Positions 23,337-38,022 of a stretch of 64,000 nucleotides of DNA are shown here, one piece after another (positions within the stretch are counted from its first letter, which is position 1; each line of letters starts with the position of its first letter). The notes beneath the pieces were generated by a model, which did no database searches, had not been told where the DNA came from, and was given only the letters and a program-made list of their open reading frames with translations. The position numbers and the translations under genes were made by a program. The stretch is from Candidatus Omnitrophota bacterium (GTDB lineage: Bacteria > Omnitrophota > Gorgyraeia > Gygaellales > Profunditerraquicolaceae): positions 6,240 to 70,239 of the forward strand of contig JAPLLW010000016.1 of the NCBI GenBank assembly GCA_026387355.1, in the 5' to 3' direction.

Positions 23337-23409
23337 AGCGGGAGGCGGGATTCGAACCCGTGACATCAACCTTGGCAAGGTTGCGCTCTACCAGCTGAGC
23401 TACTCCCGC
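23337..23409 (-). tRNA. tRNA-Gly (GCC)
   Basis: Minus-strand read GCGGGAGTAGCTCAGCTGGTAGAGCGCAACCTTGCCAAGGTTG...GGGTTCGAATCCCGCCTCCCGCT. Full cloverleaf, anticodon loop TTGCCAA, discriminator U, no encoded CCA. Confidence 0.85.
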
Positions 23410-23418
23410 GTATTAGCT

Positions 23419-23486
23419 AAAAAAGGGGTCAGAATTATTTTTCTTTCACCTGTCAGGGCCGGAAAAATAATTCTGACCCCTTTTTT
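23419..23486. terminator. long perfect inverted repeat (24-bp arms, 20-nt loop) flanked by A and T runs; bidirectional intrinsic-terminator-like
   Basis: AAAAAAGGGGTCAGAATTATTTTT ... AAAAATAATTCTGACCCCTTTTTT, between tRNA-Gly and tRNA-Leu. Shares the GGGTCAGAATTA core with the palindrome at 365-398. Confidence 0.65.
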
Positions 23487-23499
23487 CAAAGAATATACT

Positions 23500-23581
23500 T
23501 GGGCGGAAGAGGATTTGAACCTCCAAGGGTTGCCCCAATAGCTCCTAAGGCTATCGCGTCTGCCAATTTCGCCATCCGCCC
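23500..23581 (-). tRNA. tRNA-Leu (UAG), long variable arm
   Basis: Minus-strand read GGGCGGATGGCGAAATTGGCAGACGCGATAGCCTTAGGAGCTATTGGGGCAACCCTTGGAGGTTCAAATCCTCTTCCGCCCA. Anticodon loop CTTAGGA, discriminator A, no encoded CCA. Confidence 0.85.
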
Positions 23582-23688
23582 GGATATTTCCTCTTACGCT
23601 TAGAAAACTACTAAACTCGTTCTATAGTCCCTCCGCCTAATTAAGAATAGGTTGGCGTTCGGGACTCATTTTTGCTGCGCAAAAATTC

Positions 23689-23761
23689 GTGAGCCTCCCG
23701 AGACTCGAACTCGGCACACGCGGCTTAAAAAGCCGCTGCTCTACCAGATGAGCTAGAGGCC
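23689..23761 (-). tRNA. tRNA-Lys (UUU)
   Basis: Minus-strand read GGGCCTCTAGCTCATCTGGTAGAGCAGCGGCTTTTTAAGCCGCGTGTGCCGAGTTCGAGTCTCGGGAGGCTCA. Anticodon loop TTTTTAA. Confidence 0.85.
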
Positions 23762-23766
23762 CAAAC

Positions 23767-28454: not shown

Positions 28455-28536
28455 TTTACGCTCCTGTCTAAAAGGAAATGCATTTTAGCATAACTCTAGC
28501 CTTGTAGCAACTTTTTTATTGCATAATTTGGCCTTG

Positions 28537-28812
28537 CGTCTGCCTTGGCTTGTTTCTCGCGGGTACGTCCTTCTTCGCTAAAGCTTCGAAGGACTGTTCT
28601 CCGAAGCCTTGGCGAAGGAAAACGCTTGCTCGCCCCAGCGTGGCTCAGCTTAGCTCGGGTCGGCTGCGTCGCTCGAAATCAAGCCAAACCATCCGCAAGA
28701 AAGTGTCTTCGTATGTTTTAGCGGGTGACACGGCGACAGGTCCCCTACTTTTCGCAGGGCGATTAGCCCGAGAAGAAGCAGGGTGGCGCCGTGGCAGGAC
28801 CCGCTAAAACAA
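28537..28812 (+). ncRNA. GC-rich structured element, copy B (candidate small RNA or miniature repeat)
   Basis: ~276-nt GC-rich island in AT-rich sequence. Homologous to the element at 36014-36305 on the opposite strand: shared 5' block CTGCCTTGgCTtGTTTcTCGCGGGTACG, shared GGCGAA, GCTCGGGT and AGCGGGTGAC blocks, shared 3' end GGCAGGACCCGC. Helices: 5' CUGCC with 3' GGCAG; GUUUUAGCGGGU (28716-28727) with ACCCGCUAAAAC (28801-28812); hairpin GUCCUUC...GAAGGAC. Non-coding. Confidence 0.45.
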
Positions 28813-28820
28813 AATTTTAG

Positions 28821-28849
28821 TTGAAACAAGATAGTCTCTCTGCTATCAT
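28821..28849 (+). promoter_or_regulatory. sigma70-like promoter TTGAAA-N17-TATCAT; start codon only 6 nt downstream, so possibly leaderless
   Basis: TTGAAA at 28821-28826, TATCAT at 28844-28849, ATG at 28856. No Shine-Dalgarno between them. Confidence 0.4.
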
Positions 28850-28855
28850 CATGCT

Positions 28856-29782
28856 ATGGATAAATTAAAGGTAGGCGTAATCGGTGTAGGCCATCTCGGC
28901 GGTATTCACGCTAAAATATACAAAGAGATCGGGAACTGCGAGCTTGTGGCTATCTGCGATACAGATAAGAAACAATTAAACGCTGTCTCCCAGAGTCTAA
29001 GTGTACCCGGATACCATAATCACCAGGAACTCTTTGGTAAAGTTGATGCTATAAGCGTAGCTACACCTACAAAGCTGCATTTTAAAATCGCCGCTGACTT
29101 CTTAAAACAGGGGATCCATGCGCTTGTAGAAAAACCCTTTACCCCCACACTTGAAGAGGCTGACAGCCTGATAAACTTAGCCCAGGAAAAGGATCTGATA
29201 CTACAGGTAGGACATATTGAAAGGTTTAACTCTGCCTTTAACGCAACTCAAAAAATTATCAAGGATCCAAAATTTATAGAATGCCACCGCCTCTCTCCAT
29301 TTCCTAACCGTTCAACTGACGTCGGGGCAGTCTTAGACATTATGATTCATGATATCGATATCATACTGGGTTTGGTAAATTCGCCGGTAGACAAAATTGA
29401 ATCAGTAGGGATTAACGTGCTCACGCCTTTTGAAGATATCGCTAATGCCAGAATTACTTTTAAGAACGGTTGCGTGGCTAATCTCACTGCCTCCCGCATC
29501 TCTGACGAAGTAATGCGTAAAATCCGCATCTTCCAGGAGAATACCTATATATCGCTGGATTATAAAAATGCCGAGGCCTGGGTATATCGCAAGGCATTCT
29601 TAAGGATCGTAAAAGAAAATCTCCCCATTGAAAAAGAACAACCCCTGCAAAAAGAGCTTCAGGCATTTGTGGATTGCGTAATCGGGCATATCCAACCGCT
29701 TGTCTCAGGAAAAGTTGCCCGCGAAGCCTTAAAAGTAGCTTTGGAGATACAAAATCAGATATGGCACAAAAAAATATCCTGA
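28856..29782 (+). CDS. Gfo/Idh/MocA-family NAD(P)-dependent oxidoreductase (possible lipid A sugar dehydrogenase, GnnA-like)
   Basis: KVGVIGVGHLGGIHAKIY Rossmann N-terminus and EKP motif. Overlaps lpxB by 22 nt. Confidence 0.75.
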   Translation: MDKLKVGVIGVGHLGGIHAKIYKEIGNCELVAICDTDKKQLNAVSQSLSVPGYHNHQELFGKVDAISVATPTKLHFKIAADFLKQGIHALVEKPFTPTLEEADSLINLAQEKDLILQVGHIERFNSAFNATQKIIKDPKFIECHRLSPFPNRSTDVGAVLDIMIHDIDIILGLVNSPVDKIESVGINVLTPFEDIANARITFKNGCVANLTASRISDEVMRKIRIFQENTYISLDYKNAEAWVYRKAFLRIVKENLPIEKEQPLQKELQAFVDCVIGHIQPLVSGKVAREALKVALEIQNQIWHKKIS

Positions 29783-30894
29783 TTATCTGCGGCGAGCCTT
29801 CCGGTGAACTTCACGCTGCTACCTTAGTCTCTTCTCTAAAGAAATTAAGACCAGATTGGAAAATATTTGGCGTAGGCGGATCCCTCCTCTCTAACGCAGG
29901 CGCTGAAATTATTTACAATATAAAAGATTTAAGTGTCATGGGGCTCTTTGATGTACTTAAAAAACTCCCTCGGTTCATTGCCTTAAAGAATAGGATCCTA
30001 CAAAAACTTGAACACCATAAGATTGAGGCAGTTATTTTTGTAGATTTCTCCGGGTTTAATCTCAGGCTTGCTAAAGATATTAATAACCGCATCCCAACCA
30101 TCTATTACGTCAGCCCCCAGGTCTGGGCATCCAGAGAGGCTCGCGTTAAGACTATCAAGAAATATATCCGCAAGATGATCGTACTCTTCCCTTTTGAAAA
30201 AGAATTCTATAAAAAACACGGAATGGATGTAGAACTAGTAGGCCATCCACTCCTGGATATCGTAAAATCTAAAGAGGATAAGGCTTCTTTATTAAAAGCA
30301 TTAAACTTCCCTACGGAAAAAACTACAATAGCCCTATTGCCCGGATCGCGTAAACAGGAAATCAATAAAATTCTCCCCATAATGCTTAAAGCAGCTCAAT
30401 TGATAAATAAGAAACTCGATGCGCAGTATATAATTGCAAAACCAATCCAGTCTGAGCGCAATATTTATGAACACATACTCAAAAAAACTAATTTAAATGT
30501 AGCAATTGTGGAAGGTAAAACCTACGAATGCATCAACGCAGCTAACTTTTGCCTAGTCTGCTCAGGAACAGCTACACTTGAGACAGCAATTATGCAAAAA
30601 CCATTTCTGTTGATTTACAAGATGAATCTATTGAATTATCTGCTTTACCGGCCGCAGGTAAAGCTACCCTACATAGGTTTAGCGAATATAGTCGTGGGAA
30701 GAAAAATAATCCCGGAACTTATCCAATTTCAAGCTACACCCGATAAAATTGCAAAAGAAACCTTAAGCATCTTAAATGACCCCGCTAGATTAGAAAAAAT
30801 GCATAAAGATCTTGCTGAAGTAAAAACATGCCTCGGTGAACCAGGAGCAGCTATCCGCGCTAGCCACATAATCATCGATTTTCTAAAAGCTTAG
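29761..30894 (+). CDS. lpxB: lipid-A-disaccharide synthase
   Basis: Starts at the ATG at 29761 (MAQKNILIICGEPSGELHAATLV...), the typical LpxB N-terminus. The longer ORF from 29674 adds an implausible basic leader. Confidence 0.85.
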   Translation: MAQKNILIICGEPSGELHAATLVSSLKKLRPDWKIFGVGGSLLSNAGAEIIYNIKDLSVMGLFDVLKKLPRFIALKNRILQKLEHHKIEAVIFVDFSGFNLRLAKDINNRIPTIYYVSPQVWASREARVKTIKKYIRKMIVLFPFEKEFYKKHGMDVELVGHPLLDIVKSKEDKASLLKALNFPTEKTTIALLPGSRKQEINKILPIMLKAAQLINKKLDAQYIIAKPIQSERNIYEHILKKTNLNVAIVEGKTYECINAANFCLVCSGTATLETAIMQKPFLLIYKMNLLNYLLYRPQVKLPYIGLANIVVGRKIIPELIQFQATPDKIAKETLSILNDPARLEKMHKDLAEVKTCLGEPGAAIRASHIIIDFLKA

Positions 30895-30895
30895 T

Positions 30896-31984
30896 TTAAT
30901 AATCTTTTGCTGAATTGATTCGTTCATCAATCGGAGGATGGTCAAAGAAGAAGAATTTGATTATCGGATTCGGGGACCTATCGGAGAGATTCTGCTCAGA
31001 GAGCTTATTCATCGTAGAAATAAATGCATCTTTTAAACCGGTAGTCTCAAGGGCCAAAGAATCTGCGCTACGCTCAAAACTCCTGCTCACAAATGCCTCG
31101 AGCGGCTGTGCAATTACACTCAAGAGTATAAAATATATAAAAATAAGCGGCAGGCTTGCAATGTCGGATAAAGAAGCAAGTCCGAATAAATTCAGGGCAT
31201 AGATGCTTGTCCTGGCTATTAAATAGAAGATTACAAGAATGCTTAGCGAATTAATCACGATCAACTTTAGCAGGTGTTTTAACCGGCAATGCGCGAATTC
31301 ATGCGCTAATATAACTTCTATTTCATCGTAACTATATTTATCTTTCAAGGTATCGGCAAGAATTACCCTACGCGTATTCCCTACACCCACAAAGGCTGCA
31401 TTAGCCTTTAATGTCTTTTTGCTGAAATCTATTTCAAAACAATCAAGCAATTTAACATTCATTCTTTCAGCCAGTTTCATAATCCTTTCCCTTAATAATT
31501 CATCAGAGAGTTTTTTGTATTTGAAAAAAAGCGGGATAACTAACACAGGTAAAACTTTGGCCAGGATTATGCTAAAGAAAATCCAGAATGCCGAAATCGC
31601 CAGCCACCAATAAGCAGCTGTATATCTTAGAATAATATAAAAGGCCATAACTAATATTAGGCTAACTAAGAAAGAAAGACCCAGAGTCTTGAGCTGATCA
31701 TAAGACCAATCTCTCAAACTTTGCGTAGATAAAGAAAATCTATGTTCTAATATATAAGACTGGTAGAATTCAAGGGGTAGATTCAGAAAGTAGTATCCGA
31801 TGGAGACTACTGCTAAATAAGCCGGTACAACAATGTAGCTTAGGACATATTTGTTAAGCCAGATTGATAGCTTACCGGATAAACCTGAGCTTAAAAATAA
31901 AAAAAGCAGGAGAAGGATGTAGGCTGACTCAATGACCGTTAAGGTATATTTTATATTGGAATAACGCTTGGCCTTATCCTGCAT
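30896..31984 (-). CDS. M48-family zinc metalloprotease (HtpX/Ste24-like), polytopic membrane protein
   Basis: Multiple TM helices followed by HEFAHCRLKH (HExxH). Confidence 0.75.
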   Translation of the reverse strand: MQDKAKRYSNIKYTLTVIESAYILLLLFLFLSSGLSGKLSIWLNKYVLSYIVVPAYLAVVSIGYYFLNLPLEFYQSYILEHRFSLSTQSLRDWSYDQLKTLGLSFLVSLILVMAFYIILRYTAAYWWLAISAFWIFFSIILAKVLPVLVIPLFFKYKKLSDELLRERIMKLAERMNVKLLDCFEIDFSKKTLKANAAFVGVGNTRRVILADTLKDKYSYDEIEVILAHEFAHCRLKHLLKLIVINSLSILVIFYLIARTSIYALNLFGLASLSDIASLPLIFIYFILLSVIAQPLEAFVSRSFERSADSLALETTGLKDAFISTMNKLSEQNLSDRSPNPIIKFFFFDHPPIDERINSAKDY

Positions 31985-32000
31985 ATTTGAGCTGAGGATA

Positions 32001-32246
32001 CTACTTGGACTTCTTTACGAGAGGCTTTACATTAACGAAGGTGCGCACCTTTCCGTGGCTCGTCTTCTTCTTAGTGAAATAAACTTCGCCGGCACAGGCA
32101 GCAAAAAGCGTACCTAAGCCCCTGACATTAATCCCGGACTTGTAGGAATCTACACCTCTAATTAATACCTGACCGGTTTTAACAGACATGCCTGTTGAAA
32201 CTTTATTCGCTTTATCTTTCTTTGGCGTTGAAAATCCACCTGTCAT
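32001..32246 (-). CDS. ribosomal protein L27-like small basic protein (divergent)
   Basis: GQVLIRGVDSYKSGINVRGLGTLFAACAGEVYF aligns with the L27 core ([34 protein letters not shown]). The canonical N-terminal AHKKG is absent. Strong RBS AAGGAGGTAA upstream. Confidence 0.45.
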   Translation of the reverse strand: MTGGFSTPKKDKANKVSTGMSVKTGQVLIRGVDSYKSGINVRGLGTLFAACAGEVYFTKKKTSHGKVRTFVNVKPLVKKSK

Positions 32247-32309
32247 TTGATTACCTCCTTATGATAAACTAAATTATTCTATTTAAGTGAGTATATTAAC
32301 ATATAAACA

Positions 32310-33704
32310 CTAATCAAGCAAGACTTCTTCATCTTTAGATGGCACATAAGCATTTATACCCATCTTGGTAAATGTATCGCACAGATCCAGCTCCTGCTCC
32401 TCTTCGCCATGAACTAAGAATATCCTCTTAAGCGGTAAACAGGCATTTACAAACCCCAGTAAATCATTCTTATCAGCATGCCCGGACATTGCGTTAACAA
32501 TCACAACTTCAGCATTAAGCTCATATTCTATACCGAATATGCGCACAATCTTCTCTCTATCTACAATTCTCCTGCCCAAGGTATCCTTAGCCATATAACC
32601 AACTACAAGGATTGTATTTCTGGAATCCTCGATATTATTCTGAAGATGATGAAGGATTCTCCCGGATTCGCACATCCCGCTTCCTGCGATAATAATCATC
32701 GGCCGCTTATCAGCATTTAAGGCCTTAGACTCATATTGATCGCGGATAAATCTTAAGTTTAGCAATTCAAATGGGCTATTCCCTTTAGAAAACTCCTGAC
32801 GCGTTGTAGGATCAAAATAGTCATGGTGATATTCAAAGACTTCGGTAATGTCTGTTGCTAAAGGACTATCTACATATATCGGGACAGAAGGTATAAGCTT
32901 ATCTTTCAATAGCTCATTTAAGTAAAAAATAACCTCTTGCGTACGCTCCAGGGTAAATGACGGGATAAGTACTTTACCACCCCTGCGTAAAGTACGCGAG
33001 ATAGCATCCCTAAGTTTTGATTGAGCCTCCTCAATCGGCGCATGAAGCCTTGAGCCATAGGTACTTTCTAATATTAAATAATCCAGCCCCTTAGGTATAA
33101 CCGGATTATTAAGCAAGGGGAGGTTCTTTCTGCCTAAATCTACAGCATAACCTAAACGTATATTACGATTTTCATCCTTAATATCTAAAATGGTTATAGC
33201 TGAACCTAATATGTGCCCGGCATCAACAAGCGTTGCGAAAACATTTTTGGCGATACAAAATTTCTGATTATAAGAGATGGAGCGGAATATCTTTGTCGCC
33301 TTAGCCGCTTCTTTCTTAGTATAAAGAGGCTTTCTCTCAGGCAGGCCTATGCGCTTATTGATTTTATTAACATATCTGATATCTTCTTCCTGAATCTTAC
33401 CTGAATCCTTAAGCATAAGCTCAGCCAGGTCTTTTGTTGCGGAGGTAGTATAAATCTTACAACGCAGCCCCTTCTTTATGAGGCTTGGAATATTCCCGCA
33501 ATGATCAATATGCGCATGAGAAAGAACGAGCGCATTGATTAAACGCGGATTAAAACTAAAAGTTGTATTTATTGCATAAGACTCATCGCGGTGGCCCTGG
33601 AAGAGCCCTGCGTCAAGCAGAACCTCGGTCTTATCCGCAATCACCAGGTGACTTGAACCGGTAACTGTCCTTACCCCTCCTAAAAATTTTATTTTAACGG
33701 ACAT
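32310..33704 (-). CDS. MBL-fold beta-CASP family ribonuclease/hydrolase
   Basis: HAHIDHCG metallo-beta-lactamase motif near the N-terminus. 464 aa with a beta-CASP-like C-terminal half. Confidence 0.75.
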   Translation of the reverse strand: MSVKIKFLGGVRTVTGSSHLVIADKTEVLLDAGLFQGHRDESYAINTTFSFNPRLINALVLSHAHIDHCGNIPSLIKKGLRCKIYTTSATKDLAELMLKDSGKIQEEDIRYVNKINKRIGLPERKPLYTKKEAAKATKIFRSISYNQKFCIAKNVFATLVDAGHILGSAITILDIKDENRNIRLGYAVDLGRKNLPLLNNPVIPKGLDYLILESTYGSRLHAPIEEAQSKLRDAISRTLRRGGKVLIPSFTLERTQEVIFYLNELLKDKLIPSVPIYVDSPLATDITEVFEYHHDYFDPTTRQEFSKGNSPFELLNLRFIRDQYESKALNADKRPMIIIAGSGMCESGRILHHLQNNIEDSRNTILVVGYMAKDTLGRRIVDREKIVRIFGIEYELNAEVVIVNAMSGHADKNDLLGFVNACLPLKRIFLVHGEEEQELDLCDTFTKMGINAYVPSKDEEVLLD

Positions 33705-33709
33705 ATTTA

Positions 33710-34390
33710 TTACTCCTTAGTCTTTATCTTAAATAGCGCCATGATTATAAATATAATATAGATAAAGCTAAATAGCAACAAAGGTTTATGGCTTAAGAAA
33801 AATTCTCTTAAAACCTCAGGTTTACTGAATACACTTATACCTACAGAATAAAGTATATACTGAATCCAGAAAATCTTTATTGGCGAGCCAATAATTACTG
33901 CGGTAAGATATTTTCTAAAGCGAATTTTGGTAAGTCCGGCAGATAAATCTAGAAATCTATAAGGAATAAGCGGCGCAGCCCGAAATACAAATAACCAGAG
34001 AAGACTCATCTTTCCTAACTTCTCATCCAGATGCCTATATTTATCACTTAATTTACCTTCAACGCTCCTTCTGCCAAGAAGACGCGCTAGATAAAATAAT
34101 AAAAAGGCATTAATTGTTTCAGCAGCACAAATTAACAGAGCACTTAGATACGGACCGAATAATAGTGCGCCCAGTAGCCAAAATAAATCTTTGGAGAAGA
34201 ATACAAAGAAGGTAACAAAAACATAAAGAAGGATATATATAAATGCGCTGGCAAGAAGAGGGAATTTTGTTAATGCGTTTTGTAAAACAGTGGGGTCAAC
34301 TGGTATGTAGCGGCCTAAATACCAAAAGAAAACTAAGACAAAGATCAAAATTAAGAAGCCGAGATTATCCTTAATTTGCTTAATTTTCAT
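33710..34390 (-). CDS. DedA/TVP38 (SNARE-associated) family membrane protein
   Basis: Polytopic. Conserved ...LLGRR...FRAAPLIPYRFLDLSAGL... core. Confidence 0.65.
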   Translation of the reverse strand: MKIKQIKDNLGFLILIFVLVFFWYLGRYIPVDPTVLQNALTKFPLLASAFIYILLYVFVTFFVFFSKDLFWLLGALLFGPYLSALLICAAETINAFLLFYLARLLGRRSVEGKLSDKYRHLDEKLGKMSLLWLFVFRAAPLIPYRFLDLSAGLTKIRFRKYLTAVIIGSPIKIFWIQYILYSVGISVFSKPEVLREFFLSHKPLLLFSFIYIIFIIMALFKIKTKE

Positions 34391-35913
34391 TAAGTAACGA
34401 AGAGATTACGGGATGAGAATTTTCCATCAGTAGTTAAGTTTACGCCTAGTCGCTTTAGGCCAACCTCGTCTCCGGGAGTAGGTATATGCGTCATATGCAA
34501 CTCGCATCCCCTTAACTCTACAAGCTTTTGCATGGCAAGCTCCGCGGTATGATTAGTTGTTCCACTTATTGCTAAAGCAATCAGCGTCTCCTCTAAATCA
34601 AGGCTCTCAGAATCCGCATCAAGTATTCCTTCTTTTAATTTACCAATTTGATTAATTATATGCGGAGAAAGAAGTAAGATTTCATCGGGGATATTCGCTA
34701 AGACTTTAATTGCATTTAAAATCAGACTGCTTGCAGCATGCATAAGCTTGGAATTCTTCCCGGTGAGGATCCTGCCGTCATTTAACTGGATTGCTGCTCC
34801 GCAGAATATCCCGGCATTCCCCTTACCCTTAGCCTCAGCTTCAAGTGCTGTCTTTCTTGCCACCTCAACAACGCTACGGTCAATAAGCTTAATACCTAGT
34901 TCTTCCATAAGTAGCAGTACCCTATCCACCGTCTCTTTTTTCTCAATCCCCAGTACATACTCAGAATTATATCTAAAATACCTGCGGATTAACTCTTGCT
35001 TGGCTGCCTCTTGCACTAGCTTATCATCAACAATACCGAAACCCGCGCGGTTAACCCCCATATCAGTAGGCGAATTATACATAGGCAAGATTACATTCTT
35101 ATCAAATATCCTGGTAAGGATTAATTTTAGTATAGGAAAACTTTCCACATCGCGGTTATAATTTATGGAAGTCTTATTGTATTTATTCAAATGGAACGGG
35201 TCTACGAGATTAAAATCCAGGATATCAGCGGTAGCTGCTTCATATGCTACATTAACCGGGTGCTTGAGGGGCAGATTCCATATCGGAAAGGTCTCAAACT
35301 TTGCGTAACCGGCGTTTACCCCGCGCTTATGCTCAAGATATAACTGCGACAAGCAAACCGCAAGCTTCCCGCTATTTGGTCCGGGAGCAGTTACAACACA
35401 AATCGGCTTTTTGGTCTCAATAAACTGATTTTTTCCAAAACCATTATCGCTTACAATGGAGGCAACATCCGCAGGATATCCTTCTATCGGATAATGCAGA
35501 TAAACCTTAACCCCGCGATGCTCCAATTTGTTCTTGAACATAACTGCCGAAGACTGATTATTAAAACGGGTAATCACTACAGCTAAAATATCCAAACCCC
35601 ACTTACGCAAATCATCAATTAGCTTTAGCGTTGCGGCATCATAAGTAATACCAAAATCACCACGCACCCTCCCCTTCTCGATATCCCCGGCATAAATAGC
35701 CAAGACAATATCTATCTTGTCTTTTAAGCATTGCAGTAACCTTATTTTTACATTGGGGTCATAACCCGGGAGGACGCGGGCAGCATGGTAGTCATAACAG
35801 AGTTTGCCACCGAATTCCAAATAAAGCTTATTATCGAACTTATTCACGCGATCGACAATTGCCTGTGTCTGTTCTTTCAAATACTTATCATTATCAAATC
35901 CAACTTTATTCAT
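34390..35913 (-). CDS. conserved hypothetical protein (UPF0371/DUF1846-like)
   Basis: 507 aa soluble protein starting MNKVGFDNDKYLKEQTQAIVDRV. No catalytic motif I can name. RBS GGAG 9 nt before the ATG. Confidence 0.5.
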   Translation of the reverse strand: MNKVGFDNDKYLKEQTQAIVDRVNKFDNKLYLEFGGKLCYDYHAARVLPGYDPNVKIRLLQCLKDKIDIVLAIYAGDIEKGRVRGDFGITYDAATLKLIDDLRKWGLDILAVVITRFNNQSSAVMFKNKLEHRGVKVYLHYPIEGYPADVASIVSDNGFGKNQFIETKKPICVVTAPGPNSGKLAVCLSQLYLEHKRGVNAGYAKFETFPIWNLPLKHPVNVAYEAATADILDFNLVDPFHLNKYNKTSINYNRDVESFPILKLILTRIFDKNVILPMYNSPTDMGVNRAGFGIVDDKLVQEAAKQELIRRYFRYNSEYVLGIEKKETVDRVLLLMEELGIKLIDRSVVEVARKTALEAEAKGKGNAGIFCGAAIQLNDGRILTGKNSKLMHAASSLILNAIKVLANIPDEILLLSPHIINQIGKLKEGILDADSESLDLEETLIALAISGTTNHTAELAMQKLVELRGCELHMTHIPTPGDEVGLKRLGVNLTTDGKFSSRNLFVT

Positions 35914-35950
35914 TATTTAAATCTCCGTTTAGAATGATTATATAGTAAGT

Positions 35951-35978
35951 ATTATAATACTGAAATGAGTCATTGTAA
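35951..35978 (-). promoter_or_regulatory. sigma70-like promoter TTACAA-N16-TATAAT for the DUF1846 gene
   Basis: Minus-strand read ...CTTTACAATGACTCATTTCAGTATTATAATACT..., about 40 nt upstream of the ATG at 35913. Confidence 0.5.
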
Positions 35979-36013
35979 AGAGCTCCTAATCTTCATGTGT
36001 TAGTAGATGTTAA

Positions 36014-36305
36014 CAGGCGGGTCCTGCCTGCTGATCCACCCCGTTCGTGCTCCCCGCCATAAAACTTGGCGGGTGCGCGCGTACGGGGTCCCCGTATCAG
36101 CAGTCACCCGCTTTTAATACTAATAAACACTAGTTAGTTAGGTACTGACTTGCCTGTGTTTAAGCGGGGCGTCCGAGGAACCCGAGCGGGCACGGTTCGC
36201 CTTCTAATAATGTCAGCGAGAGCGAGGGTCCGCAGGTCGAGCGAAGTTTTGCCTCGCAGGGGCAAAACGAGCGTACCCGCGAAAACACAGGCAAGGCAGG
36301 ACCTA
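36014..36305 (-). ncRNA. GC-rich structured element, copy A (same family as 28537-28812, opposite orientation)
   Basis: ~290-nt GC-rich island between the carB-N stop and the DUF1846 promoter. On the minus strand: 5' GGUCCUGCC pairs with 3' GGCAGGACC (9 bp); conserved block CTGCCTTGCCTGTGTTTTCGCGGGTACG; perfect 8-bp hairpin GUUUUGCC-CCUGCGAG-GGCAAAAC; GCGGGU...ACCCGC helix; shared GGCGAA, GCTCGGGT, AGCGGGTGAC and GGCAGGACCCGC blocks with copy B. Confidence 0.45.
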
Positions 36306-36322
36306 TTGAAAAGATTTTAGCG

Positions 36323-36353
36323 TAATAAAAAGCTGCATTAAAAAATACAGCAG
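36323..36353 (-). terminator. intrinsic terminator after carA-carB(N)
   Basis: Minus-strand GCUGUA-UUUUUUAA-UGCAGC hairpin followed by UUUUUAUU, immediately after the carB-N stop (36361). Confidence 0.5.
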
Positions 36354-36360
36354 GCAAGAC

Positions 36361-38022
36361 CTATTCTTCGTAGGTAGAATAAAAATACGGGGTATATGCC
36401 TTAAATTCGGCGGCACAGGTATCTACAAGCTTAAAGGTGGGTTCTATTTTAAGCTCTTTACGTAGCTTACTGATATCTTCCTCTTTTTTATTCAAAAGCT
36501 TGGCTAGCTGTCTATCGCTAAACCCAAACTCTTTAGCCTCTCTTAAGAGTTCTTTAGATATACTAGCCTTGCTACCTGCAACCTCTTTCTCTAAATCGAT
36601 TATCTCGCCTATATTGCTTAAAAACCAACGGTCGATTTTAGTAATTGCAAAAATCTTATCGATACTCATACCCATCCTTAATGCATCGCCGATATAAAAT
36701 ATGCGCTCGGCATTGGGAGTTTTGAGCTTTTGTTCTATCTTAATCCTAACTTCATCATCTACTTTTATATCCAGAGGATTAGAAAACATTAAGCTCTCTA
36801 ACCCAAATTTCTTAATCTCAAGCGAACGCAAACCCTTTTGTAATGATTCCTTAAAGGTCCTTCCTATAGACATAGCCTCACCCACGGATTTCATAGATAC
36901 AGTAAGCGTAGGATCAGAAGAAGGAAATTTCTCAAAAGTAAAACGGGGAATTTTTACCACGCAATAATCAATCGCAGGCTCAAAACAGGCAGGCGTTTCG
37001 CGAGTGATATCGTTAGGGATCTCATCAAGCGTATAACCAACAGCGAGCTTTGCCGCAATTTTAGCGATAGGAAAACCTGTCGCCTTTGAAGCCAGAGCAG
37101 AACTGCGCGAAACCCGCGGGTTCATCTCAATCACAACCATACGTCCGGTATCCGGATTTAAAGCAAACTGAATATTTGATCCGCCGGTCTCAACCCCAAT
37201 CTCTCTTATGCAGGCAATAGCGGCATCGCGCATCTTTTGATATTCTTTATCAGTCAGGGTTTGAATTGGCGCTACGGTAATACTATCGCCGGTATGCACA
37301 CCCATAGGATCAAGATTCTCAATCGAGCAGATAATTACTACATTATCTTTTAAATCACGCATTACCTCCAGCTCAAACTCCTTCCAGCCTGCCACCGACT
37401 CCTCTACCAAAATCTCGCTGATCATACTTGATTCTAAACCGCGCTTGGCTAATTCCTTAAATTCATCAATATTGTAAGCCATGCTTCCCCCTGTTCCCCC
37501 TAAGGTAAAACTCGGACGGATAATTAAGGGAAACCCGATTTCTTTGGCCACTTTTATTGATTCTTTAAGATTATAAGCTTTTCCGCTACGCGGCAGATCC
37601 AAACCAATTTTGCTCATCGCTTCTTTAAAAAGCTGCCTATCCTCGCCCTTCTTTATTGCCTTTATATTAGCTCCAATACACTCTACTTTATATTTCTTTA
37701 ATACGCCGCTCTCTGCCAAAGCAATGGTAACATTTAAGGCAGTCTGGCCACCTAATGTCGGTAAAAGTGCGTCCGGCCTTTCCTTGGCAATTATTCTCTC
37801 GAGGACTTCCGGTATAATCGGCTCTACATAAGTAGCATCGGCTATTTGAGGATCAGTCATTATTGTTGCCGGGTTTGAATTAACCAGGACGATATTAAAA
37901 CCCTCCTGCTTTAAGACTTTACAGGCCTGTGTCCCGGAATAATCAAATTCGCATGCTTGGCCGATTACTATAGGCCCGGAACCAATAATTAAAATCTTTT
38001 TTAGATCAGTTCTTTTTGGCAT
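36361..38022 (-). CDS. carB: carbamoyl-phosphate synthase large subunit, N-terminal half only (carboxyphosphate synthetic plus oligomerisation domains)
   Basis: [35 protein letters not shown]... 553 aa ending at the end of the oligomerisation domain. No C-terminal half follows. Confidence 0.85.

What the first reader, a model, noticed from the sequence alone, without database searches (positions are those of the whole stretch)
28537..36305. Two diverged copies of a ~280-nt GC-rich non-coding element in opposite orientations
Copy B (28537-28812, plus) and copy A (36014-36305, minus) are clearly more GC-rich than the AT-rich surroundings. Both are intergenic. B lies between divergent msbA and the oxidoreductase/lpxB pair. 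A lies between the carB terminator and the DUF1846 promoter. They share blocks in the same order: CTGCCTTG(C/G)CT(G)TGTTT(T/C)TCGCGGGTACG, GGCGAA, GCTCGGGT, AGCGGGTGAC, and a 3' end GGCAGGACCCGC. In each copy the 5' CUGCC pairs with the 3' GGCAG. In each copy a GCGGGU...ACCCGC helix closes an ~80-nt 3' domain. Right after the GGGTACG block the primary sequence differs completely between copies, yet both form a perfect hairpin at that spot (A: GUUUUGCC-loop-GGCAAAAC; B: GUCCUUC-loop-GAAGGAC). That is structure conservation with compensatory change, pointing to an RNA-level function rather than a coding one. The spurious ORFs covering the copies (28550-28807; 36160-36357) read the conserved 5' block in different frames, so no peptide is conserved. 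Plausible -10 elements sit just upstream of each 5' end (TGCATAAT for B, TAAAAT for A). No transposase, reverse transcriptase or IscB/TnpB gene is nearby. I could not fit it to RNase P, tmRNA, SRP or 6S RNA. Candidate identities are a novel multicopy small RNA family or a structured non-autonomous mobile element (miniature inverted-repeat transposable element (MITE)-like, with 9-bp terminal inverted repeats). This may be the previously undescribed feature of the window.
Basis: seen in the sequence. Interest (0 to 1): 0.85.

Follow-up and report, generated by a model that had tools for sequence, protein, structure and literature searches.

The report
GC-rich hairpin repeat units in Omnitrophota
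The two GC-rich stretches are real copies of a small, non-coding, hairpin-forming repeat family. The family is scattered patchily through intergenic DNA of a few uncultured Omnitrophota genomes, so it is most likely a miniature mobile or repeat element rather than a new RNA gene.

Summary
Window 28536-28804 (+) and 36017-36303 (-) are the two strongest GC outliers in the window (0.58 against 0.41 +/- 0.04). They share long exact blocks, fold far better than shuffles, and match nothing in Rfam 15.

Each "280-nt element" is two separable hairpin units placed tail to tail. Unit 1 is about 160-200 nt and unit 2 about 85-96 nt. Both have the same conserved base: GCG(GG)TCCTGCC ... GTCA(GT/C)CCGC.

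Relatives turned up only in Candidatus Omnitrophota metagenome-assembled genomes, at non-orthologous sites. Some are solo units, one is miniaturised, one is truncated, and one carries an internal 65-nt tandem duplication.

In genomes whose DUF1846 protein is 88-92% identical, the carB-DUF1846 site is empty in five lineages. The msbA/oxidoreductase site lacks a unit in six lineages, holds one in the opposite orientation in another, and holds only a mini unit 1 plus unit 2 in another.

Both window copies lie outside the conserved promoters of the neighbouring genes. No promoter or terminator of their own is conserved. Both strands fold equally well.

The stems do covary (7 of 37 pairs, 0/500 shuffles). 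Best reading: a non-autonomous hairpin repeat resembling REP/BIME (repetitive extragenic palindrome / mosaic element) or MITE families (confidence 0.6). A functional structured RNA is not excluded (about 0.2). Interest is moderate to low.

The parts
28536..28696 (+). Copy B, unit 1: a diverged hairpin unit. Its termini are GCGTCTGCCTTGG ... CCAAACCATCCGC. A closing stem of about 21 bp joins the two ends.
   Evidence: Covariance model R1 scores it at 32 bits, E = 1.4e-5. The fold is. blastn links it to the L-type (L002/L008/L010) copies.
28568..28621 (+). A hairpin of about 55 nt inserted in unit 1 of copy B only (GUCCUUCUUCGC...GCGAAGGA).
   Evidence: In the blastn alignment of B to the L-type copies, homology resumes at 28622. 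The MAFFT alignment shows a B-specific insertion.
28697..28719 (.). AT-rich spacer between the two units of copy B.
   Evidence: Read directly from the sequence.
28720..28804 (-). Read on the minus strand it runs GCGGGTCCTGCC-stem...stem-GTCACCCGC. These are the same termini as unit 1, so it is a short unit in inverted orientation.
   Evidence: Fold. It is 95.4% identical to a unit 2 that lacks a full-length unit 1, at the orthologous site L018:17245-17331. The termini comparison is read directly from the sequence.
36141..36303 (-). Copy A, unit 1. Its termini are GGTCCTGCCTTGCC ... GGCAAGTCAGTACC. The terminal arms are 30 nt long and 87% complementary.
   Evidence: Listed as inverted repeat I1. 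Covariance model R1 scores it at 157 bits. The first 64 nt are 89-95% identical to the L002/L008/L010 copies.
36113..36140 (.). AT-rich spacer between the two units of copy A.
   Evidence: Read directly from the sequence. A Logan assembly contig of the same organism (L001) breaks at this spacer and starts at AGCGGGTGAC.
36017..36112 (+). Copy A, unit 2. It is an inverted short unit with the same base as B's unit 2 (AGCGGGTGAC ... GGCAGGACCCGC) but a different hairpin tip.
28482..28510 (-). msbA promoter (TTGCTA-17-TAAAAT). It lies outside copy B and points away from it.
   Evidence: Promoter scan. The boxes are conserved in L022 and L025.
28821..28849 (+). Oxidoreductase/lpxB promoter (TTGAAA-17-TGnTATCAT). 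It lies downstream of copy B, so B sits between two divergent promoters.
   Evidence: Promoter scan. The boxes are conserved in L022 and L025 as TTGCAA-17-TATTAT.
35951..35979 (-). DUF1846 promoter (TTTACA-17-TATAAT). It lies downstream of copy A.
   Evidence: Promoter scan. The same boxes are present in relatives that lack the element: L018, L019 and L026.
36332..36351 (-). carB terminator-like hairpin followed by a T run. It lies upstream of copy A.
   Evidence: Terminator scan.

Best explanation
A and B are members of a lineage-restricted family of non-coding, GC-rich, hairpin-forming intergenic repeat units. They behave like small non-autonomous mobile or repeat DNA, comparable to REP/BIME/REPIN elements or MITEs.

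The basic unit is a long imperfect palindrome of 85-200 nt, with a mini version of about 86 nt. Its base is conserved and asymmetric: 5' GCG(GG)-TCCTGCC-stem ... stem-GTCA(GT)-(CC)CGC 3'. The interior is variable.

In this window each site carries two units tail to tail, separated by an AT-rich spacer of 23-28 nt.

Inferred mechanism (not shown): the conserved loop-plus-stem at the base of each hairpin is the recognition site of a recombinase or transposase acting in trans and encoded elsewhere. The hairpin would form on single-stranded or extruded DNA. Units are gained, lost, inverted, truncated and duplicated in intergenic spacers, preferentially between a gene's end or terminator and the next promoter. 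The need to keep the hairpin explains the compensatory changes.

Any host-level effect, such as stabilising the 3' end of an mRNA or insulating neighbouring promoters, would be secondary.
For: 1. **Patchy presence at orthologous sites.**
   - The carB-DUF1846 spacer is 447 nt in the window.
   - In five related lineages (DUF1846 protein 88-92% identical) it is only 62-99 nt, holding just the conserved promoter: L018, L019, L026, L028, L043.
   - The msbA/oxidoreductase spacer lacks a unit in L019, L025, L026, L028, L035 and L040.
2. **Same site, opposite orientation.** In L022 unit 1 points towards msbA. In the window it points towards the oxidoreductase.
3. **Separable modules and decay forms.**
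   - Unit 2 with only a mini unit 1, no full-length one: L018:17245-17331.
   - Mini unit 1: L018:17481-17566.
   - Truncated remnant: L028:3834-3981.
   - 65-nt internal tandem duplication: L002.
   - Roughly 55-nt insertion plus roughly 70-nt deletion: copy B.
4. **Unrelated genomic contexts.** Copies sit after an EF-G-like gene, after an unknown 725-aa gene, and before a fluoride riboswitch and crcB.
5. **High identity across species.** L008 and L010 are 98.5% identical over 196 nt. They come from two different species representatives and lie at non-orthologous sites.
6. **No conserved promoter or terminator of its own.**
   - Copy B lies between two divergent promoters.
   - Copy A lies between the carB terminator and the DUF1846 promoter.
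   - All of those promoters are conserved in relatives.
7. **Both strands fold equally well.** There is no excess of G-U pairs on one strand.
8. **The palindrome is maintained.** 93.9% of cells are paired, and 7 of 37 pairs show double changes, against 2.0 in shuffles (0/500).
9. **No match to known RNAs or mobile DNA.** Nothing was found in Rfam 15, plasmids or phages, or IMG/VR.
10. **Sister genomes carry other small repeats at the same hotspot.**
    - 18 REP-like GGGGACACCC motifs in alternating orientation in L018.
    - A 95-nt element with perfect 22-bp terminal inverted repeats in L022.
Against: - No transposase or recombinase has been linked to the family. No autonomous element with the same ends was found.
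- There is no consistent target-site duplication. TA/TA flanks occur in 2 of 6 units, and TA is itself palindromic.
- Copy number looks low. There are two sites in 64 kb here. The exact 19-base pattern hit only 1-2 times in each of the two Omnitrophota metagenome-assembled genomes that matched. Classical REP and MITE families are usually more abundant.
- Covariation in an internal hairpin (P4) and the high GC content would also fit a selected RNA structure.
- 98.5% identity between copies in different species could reflect purifying selection rather than recent movement.
- In tandem gene contexts, 4 of 5 copies point the same way as the upstream gene. This hints weakly at an RNA-level role (p about 0.19).
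Confidence: 0.6

Rival explanations
1. A family of functional structured non-coding RNAs. These could be trans-acting small RNAs or protein-binding RNAs, possibly carried on a mobile unit. On this reading the hairpin and multibranch fold is selected at the RNA level.
For: - Folding is strong: z = -4 to -6.
- Compensatory changes occur in the closing stem and the internal hairpin.
- GC content is about 4 sd above an AT-rich background, as is typical of structured RNAs.
- Copies in different species are 98.5% identical.
- Mismatches in the terminal stem are conserved and asymmetric.
- 4 of 5 copies in tandem gene contexts point the same way as the upstream gene.
Against: - No conserved promoter or terminator flanks the copies.
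- Copy B lies between two divergent promoters and copy A lies after a terminator.
- The reverse strand folds as well or better.
- Distribution is sporadic, orientation flips at one site, and truncated or duplicated copies exist.
- Copy B has lost about 70 nt of the core that A and the L-type (L002/L008/L010) copies keep.
- No Rfam match was found.
Confidence: 0.2
2. A cis-acting element taken over by the host. One version is a stable 3'-UTR hairpin that protects the upstream mRNA from 3' exonucleases or reinforces termination. Another is a DNA-level insulator between neighbouring promoters. On either version the repeat is kept where it is useful.
For: - Copies sit directly after gene ends or terminators. 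In L002 the copy starts 10 nt after the stop codon of the EF-G-like gene. A, L008 and L010 follow terminator-like hairpins.
- REP and BIME elements are known, from established literature, to stabilise upstream mRNA.
Against: - Copy B and the L022 copy lie between divergent promoters, with no upstream gene to protect.
- The orthologous genes in most relatives do without the element.
- In L028 the remnant is antisense to both neighbouring genes.
Confidence: 0.12
3. Remnants of a small protein-coding gene or a type I toxin-antitoxin-like module. The idea rests on the open frames that start at the shared TTG.
For: Open frames of 49-58 aa start at the same TTG in A, B and the L-type (L002/L008/L010) copies. 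A and the L-type copies share the frame at GAACCGTGCCCGCTC.
Against: - No ribosome-binding site is present.
- The frame differs in L022 and at the CAAGTCAGT block.
- The 65-nt duplication in L002 and the indels in B break the frame.
- A six-frame translation of the elements finds no called protein among 5.8 billion clusters.
- Long open frames are expected anyway in GC-rich sequence.
Confidence: 0.03

Closest known systems
REP / BIME / REPIN elements (repetitive extragenic palindromes, mobilised by REP-associated tyrosine transposases, RAYTs)
   Same: - Extragenic and GC-rich.
- Imperfect palindromic units with a conserved base.
- Units occur in inverted pairs separated by a short spacer, and in mosaic combinations.
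- No target-site duplication.
- Presence varies between close relatives.
- Sister genomes carry short REP-like palindromes at the same hotspot.
   Different: - Units are 85-200 nt with branched interiors, not 20-40 nt.
- There is no conserved GT(A/G)G head.
- Copy number appears low.
- No RAYT gene has been linked to the family.
Bacterial MITEs and similar small mobile sequences (Correia/NEMIS, ERIC/IRU, RUP, BOX)
   Same: - 160-290 bp, non-coding and intergenic.
- The composite has terminal inverted repeats: GCG(G)GTCCTGCC / GGCAGGAC(CC)GC.
- Strong predicted RNA or DNA secondary structure.
- Modular, with internal duplication as in BOX elements.
- Deletion derivatives exist.
   Different: - No consistent target-site duplication.
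- No parent insertion sequence with matching ends was found.
- Solo units lacking one 'terminal repeat' are common.
- GC content is far above the host genome's.
Integron attC sites and IS200/IS605 end hairpins (structures recognised as folded single-stranded DNA)
   Same: - A hairpin with conserved asymmetric mismatches near its base and a variable tip.
- Pairing is maintained by compensatory change.
- No target-site duplication.
   Different: - No RYYYAAC/GTTRRRY core sites, and no cassette ORFs.
- No conserved 4-5 nt target on the 5' flank.
- No tnpA, tnpB or intI gene nearby.
GC-rich structured non-coding RNAs found by GC/intergenic-region screens (for example the raiA, HEARO and OLE classes in Rfam)
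   Same: A GC-rich island in an AT-rich genome, with strong folding and covariation.
   Different: - No covariance-model match to any of the 4227 Rfam families, even at E < 10.
- No conserved transcription signals.
- Positions are not syntenic.

Membership tests
MITE | Small (<500 bp) and non-coding | tested here: met
   The composites are 269-287 bp and the units 85-200 nt. No reading frame is conserved.
MITE | Terminal inverted repeats | tested here: met
   The composite ends are GCG(G)TCCTGCC and GGCAGGACCCGC. Unit 1 of copy A has 30-nt arms that are 87% complementary. Several copies lack the outer right repeat, however.
MITE | Target-site duplication of fixed length | tested here: inconclusive
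   No consistent direct repeat flanks the copies. TA/TA occurs in 2 of 6 units, and TA could equally be an extension of the stem.
MITE | Multiple dispersed copies and filled/empty site polymorphism | tested here: met
   There are 2 sites in the window, 2 in JAPLLN01, 1 in JAPLLM01, 1 in JAPLLX01, and partial copies in L018 and L028. Orthologous sites are empty in 5-6 lineages. The copy number per complete genome is unknown.
MITE | A related autonomous insertion sequence with the same ends | not testable with these tools
REP/BIME/REPIN | Short (about 20-40 nt) imperfect palindrome with a conserved GT(A/G)G head | tested here: not met
   Units are 85-200 nt and start with GCG(GG)TCCTGCC.
REP/BIME/REPIN | Units in inverted pairs or mosaics, extragenic | tested here: met
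   Copies A and B each consist of unit 1, an AT-rich spacer and an inverted unit 2. All copies are intergenic.
REP/BIME/REPIN | A cognate RAYT gene flanked by the repeats | not tested
   No such gene appeared among the ORFs scanned near the window copies (25.6-39.1 kb). ORFs elsewhere in the window were not run against Pfam (one search lists coordinates and lengths only). The whole genome is not available here.
Known Rfam RNA family | Covariance-model score at or above the gathering threshold | tested here: not met
   Only tRNAs reach threshold in the window. At E < 10 the elements give only spurious microRNA and CRISPR-repeat matches.
Riboswitch / 5' leader | Lies within the 5' UTR, between the promoter and the start codon | tested here: not met
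   Conserved sigma-70-like promoters lie downstream of both copies, at 28821-28849 and 35979-35951. These are promoter predictions, not mapped transcription start sites.
IS200/IS605-derived element (PATE) or TnpB/IscB guide RNA | A conserved target tetra- or pentanucleotide on the 5' flank, or an adjacent tnpA/tnpB/iscB gene | tested here: not met
   The left flanks differ: CAATA, GCCTT, AATTC, AGTGC, TAGTT, TAGTA. Neighbouring genes are housekeeping genes.
Retron non-coding RNA | An adjacent reverse transcriptase gene | tested here: not met
   The flanking genes are msbA, a Gfo/Idh/MocA oxidoreductase, lpxB, carB and DUF1846.
Integron attC | R''/R' core sites (RYYYAAC ... GTTRRRY) and cassette context | tested here: not met
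   The termini are GCG...CGC. No cassette ORFs or arrays are present.

The most novel reading that the evidence does not exclude
The units could be a new class of hairpin element that moves as single-stranded nucleic acid. The conserved asymmetric loop-and-stem base (UCCUGCC / GUCA(GU), clamped by GC pairs) would be recognised by an as yet unidentified Omnitrophota recombinase or RNA-binding protein. Alternatively, they could be mobile genes for a structured RNA with a cellular role. Either reading would explain covariation inside the unit, 98.5% identity across species, and GC content 4 sd above the genome.
Probability: 0.15. Interest if true: 0.6.

Novelty: new member of a known kind. Interest (0 to 1): 0.3.

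Why it matters
Omnitrophota are uncultured, and their mobile DNA and non-coding repertoire are almost undescribed. I found no paper on either.

A defined repeat family with clear unit boundaries has several practical uses:
- It is a marker for strain and lineage dynamics.
- It explains assembly breaks. A Logan contig ends inside copy A.
- It gives a concrete bait (the conserved hairpin base) for finding the enzyme that moves it.

It also serves as a caution. GC-rich, well-folding, covarying intergenic islands in AT-rich genomes are not necessarily RNA genes.

If the minority reading is right, this would be a new structured RNA class restricted to a candidate phylum.

Tried and rejected
**Searches that found nothing relevant**
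- Rfam at gathering thresholds and at E < 10, on both copies and on related loci: nothing relevant.
- IMG/VR pattern scans with the 5' block and with the 3' unit: no hits.
- JGI metagenome pattern scan: 7 hits, all chance matches in GC-rich contigs.
- Genome scan: 9 hits, of which only the 3 in Omnitrophota are real.
- A concatenated six-frame translation of A, B and L010, searched against 5.8 billion protein clusters to catch spurious ORF calls on further copies: no hit.
- blastn ('distant' mode) against plasmids and phages: no match.
- Pfam and NCBIfam on the three ORFs of the 3.5-kb insertion at the L018 hotspot, as possible transposases: no family.
- Literature search on Omnitrophota non-coding RNA and repeats: nothing specific.
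- One contig look-up was wasted on P0001, which is identical to the window protein.

**Readings considered and rejected**
- Riboswitch or leader: the promoters lie downstream of the elements.
- Retron, IscB, TnpB or IS110 guide RNAs: no partner gene is present.
- Group II intron: too small, and no domain V match.
- Type I toxin or small protein: the reading frame is not conserved.
- attC site: the core sites are missing.
- 6S RNA: a bona fide 6S RNA was found separately in L002.

**Tests that were uninformative**
- Strand asymmetry of folding energy: forward and reverse are about equal.
- Orientation relative to the upstream gene: 4 of 5 copies co-oriented, not significant.

Full report

Yes. 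Reading the two regions shows two related GC-rich stretches: B at 28536-28804 on the plus strand and A at 36017-36303 on the minus strand.
- In 250-nt windows they reach GC 0.58, against a window mean of 0.41 (sd 0.04). They are the top outliers in the 64 kb.
- The block CTGCCTTG-N9-TCGCGGGTACG occurs exactly twice (0 expected).
- GGCAGGACCCGC occurs exactly twice (0.09 expected).
- Both stretches fold far better than dinucleotide shuffles, with z = -4.8 and -6.1.
- These two intergenic spacers (401 and 447 nt) are the largest in a tightly packed housekeeping region.

**2. Known RNA?**

No. Rfam 15 at gathering thresholds finds only three tRNAs in the window. At E < 10 the two regions give only spurious microRNA and CRISPR-repeat matches.

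**3. Relatives elsewhere**

- A scan of 185,579 species-representative genomes with the 19-base 5' block gave nine hits. Six are chance matches inside GC-rich genomes.
- The other three are true relatives in two Candidatus Omnitrophota MAGs from Lac Pavin: L002 and L008 in JAPLLN01, and L010 in JAPLLM01.
- The JGI metagenome scan gave only chance hits. IMG/VR gave none. Plasmid and phage collections gave none.
- The DUF1846 protein of the window has more than 100 orthologues at 85-92% identity. Every hit that carries a source name is from Omnitrophica/Omnitrophota MAGs. This identifies the source lineage.
- It also let me fetch the syntenic 21-kb region from about ten related lineages.

**4. 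Corrected anatomy**

- blastn between copies and the alignments show that the '280-nt element' is composite.
- Unit 1 (A 36141-36303; B 28536-28696; 196 nt in L008 and L010) runs from GCGTCCTGCCTTG to CAAGTCAGTCCGC. It is closed by a stem of about 21-25 bp formed by its own two ends. In copy A this is the top inverted repeat of the window (30 nt, 87% complementary).
- An AT-rich spacer of 23-28 nt follows.
- Read on the opposite strand, unit 2 is GCGGGTCCTGCC-stem...stem-GTCACCCGC. It therefore has the same termini as unit 1 (GCG-TCCTGCC ... GTCAGT-CCGC).
- A and B are thus two hairpin units tail to tail.
- The units are separable:
  - L002, L008 and L022 have unit 1 without a unit 2.
  - L010 has unit 1 plus only the last 12 nt of a unit 2.
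  - L018 has a unit 2 that is 95.4% identical to B's, at the orthologous site, with only an 86-nt mini unit 1 nearby in the other orientation.

**5.

- The hairpin right after GGGTACG in B (GUCCUUC...GAAGGAC) is a B-specific insertion of about 55 nt.
- The homologue of A's GUUUUGCC/GGCAAAAC hairpin lies further on, at B 28622-28650.
- Even so, across A, two L-type copies (L010 and L002, the latter with its duplication removed) and L022, the homologous hairpin and the closing stem do covary:
  - 93.9% of pair cells are canonical.
  - 7 of 37 pairs change on both sides, against 2.0 +/- 1.2 in column shuffles (0/500) and at most 2 in slid controls.
- Only four distinct sequences were available, so this supports maintained pairing but is not a rigorous test.
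- Pairing potential is not strand-specific. The reverse complements fold as well or slightly better, with similar numbers of G-U pairs.

**6. Not coding**

- Open frames are expected in GC-rich DNA. The frame shared by A and the L-type copies at one block is shifted at the next block and differs in L022.
- L002 carries a 65-nt internal tandem duplication, which is not a multiple of three.
- A six-frame query found no called protein among 5.8 billion clusters.

**7. Behaviour in evolution**

*carB-DUF1846 site.* The spacer is 447 nt in the window. In five related lineages (L018, L019, L026, L028, L043) it is 62-99 nt and contains essentially only the conserved TTTACA-17-TATAAT promoter.

*msbA/oxidoreductase site.*
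- L019, L025, L026, L028, L035 and L040 have no unit.
- L022 has a diverged unit 1 in the opposite orientation, next to an unrelated 95-nt element with perfect 22-bp terminal repeats.
- L018 has unit 2, a mini unit 1, 18 REP-like GGGGACACCC motifs in alternating orientation, and a 3.5-kb insertion with three ORFs of no known family.

*Other copies.*
- L028 carries a truncated remnant at another spacer, antisense to both neighbouring genes.
- The Lac Pavin copies sit in unrelated contexts: after an EF-G-like gene, after an unknown 725-aa gene, and upstream of a fluoride riboswitch and crcB.
- L008 and L010 come from two different species representatives and lie at non-orthologous sites, yet are 98.5% identical over 196 nt.
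- Copy A is closer to the Lac Pavin copies (89-95% over its first 64 nt) than to copy B in its own genome.

**8. Transcription signals**

- No promoter or terminator is conserved at the unit ends.
- The predicted promoters of the neighbouring genes are conserved in relatives, and they lie outside the elements.
  - B sits between the divergent msbA promoter (28482-28510, minus strand) and the oxidoreductase promoter (28821-28849, plus strand).
  - A sits between the carB terminator-like hairpin (36332-36351) and the DUF1846 promoter (35951-35979).
- These are consensus predictions, not mapped ends. They argue against a 5' leader and make an RNA-level role unnecessary, especially for B.

**9. 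Interpretation**

- The combination points to a non-autonomous hairpin repeat family of the REP/BIME/REPIN or MITE kind: patchy filled/empty sites, orientation flips, solo/mini/truncated/duplicated forms, near-identical copies at unrelated sites in different species, no transcription signals of its own, symmetric foldability, and co-occurrence with other small repeats at a hotspot.
- The conserved asymmetric base of each hairpin is the obvious candidate recognition site for an enzyme acting in trans. Maintenance of the hairpin explains the compensatory changes. These last two steps are inference.
- What does not fit neatly:
  - No consistent target-site duplication.
  - No partner transposase found.
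  - Apparently low copy number.
  - Unusually high GC content.
  - Covariation in an internal hairpin.
- These points keep a functional structured RNA alive as a rival (about 0.2). A host-exapted 3'-end or insulator role is a further possibility (about 0.1).

**10. Novelty and score**

- The family is undescribed. It is absent from Rfam, and I found no literature on Omnitrophota repeats or non-coding RNAs.
- It belongs to a well-known kind of object, so I rate it as a new member of a known kind, with interest 0.3.
- The most novel reading not excluded is a hairpin element recognised as single-stranded nucleic acid by an unknown enzyme, or a mobile structured RNA gene. I give it a probability of about 0.15 and an interest of about 0.6 if true.

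Noticed in passing
L022:16631-16725: An unrelated MITE-like element of about 95 nt with perfect 22-bp terminal inverted repeats (AATAAATGACACTGGCAAGTTT). It sits next to the unit 1 copy in the msbA/oxidoreductase spacer of a sister genome (GCA_026387335.1). In the close relative L025 this spacer holds neither this element nor unit 1, only a different 53-nt hairpin-like stretch.
   Followed up: partly
L018:17200-20480; L026:10148-10232: Clusters of short REP-like palindromes built on GGGGACACCC in alternating orientation. L018 has 18 motifs and L026 has 4. In L018 they lie between and around three ORFs of no known family (239, 132 and 314 aa), within a 3.5-kb insertion at the same intergenic hotspot.
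   Followed up: partly
L002:1665-1794 (minus strand): A perfect 65-nt tandem duplication inside unit 1 of the copy that follows the EF-G-like gene. It shows that the interior of the unit tolerates large rearrangements.
   Followed up: yes
L001:1-103: A Logan assembly contig of the same organism (SRR20698638) starts exactly at AGCGGGTGAC, the first base of unit 2 in copy A. This is consistent with an assembly-graph break caused by a repeat.
   Followed up: no
window 23419-23486: A perfect 25-bp inverted repeat (AAAAAAGGGGTCAGAATTATTTTTC / its complement, 18-nt loop) lies between two tRNA genes of the 23337-23762 tRNA cluster. It looks like a bidirectional terminator. A similar GGGGTCAGACCCC palindrome occurs in L019.
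   Followed up: no
window 36361-38022 (minus strand): The carB gene here encodes only a 553-aa N-terminal half of the carbamoyl-phosphate synthase large subunit, immediately after carA. The same split form is conserved in the relatives that keep carA-carB beside DUF1846 (L018, L019, L026, L028, L043). The second half is not adjacent.
   Followed up: no
L010:477-547 and L002:6667-6826 (minus strand): A fluoride riboswitch lies upstream of crcB (53 bits). A 6S RNA is also present (71 bits). Both are in the Lac Pavin Omnitrophota MAGs, which shows that standard RNA models work in this lineage.
   Followed up: yes
L008:1-820: About 800 nt downstream of the L008 copy has no ORF of 80 aa or more that lies wholly inside the contig, and no Rfam match. 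Its nature is unknown. L002 and L008 also share a short similar stretch 3' of unit 1 (GGTTCGAAATCGCGCC / GGTTTGAATCACGCC).
   Followed up: partly
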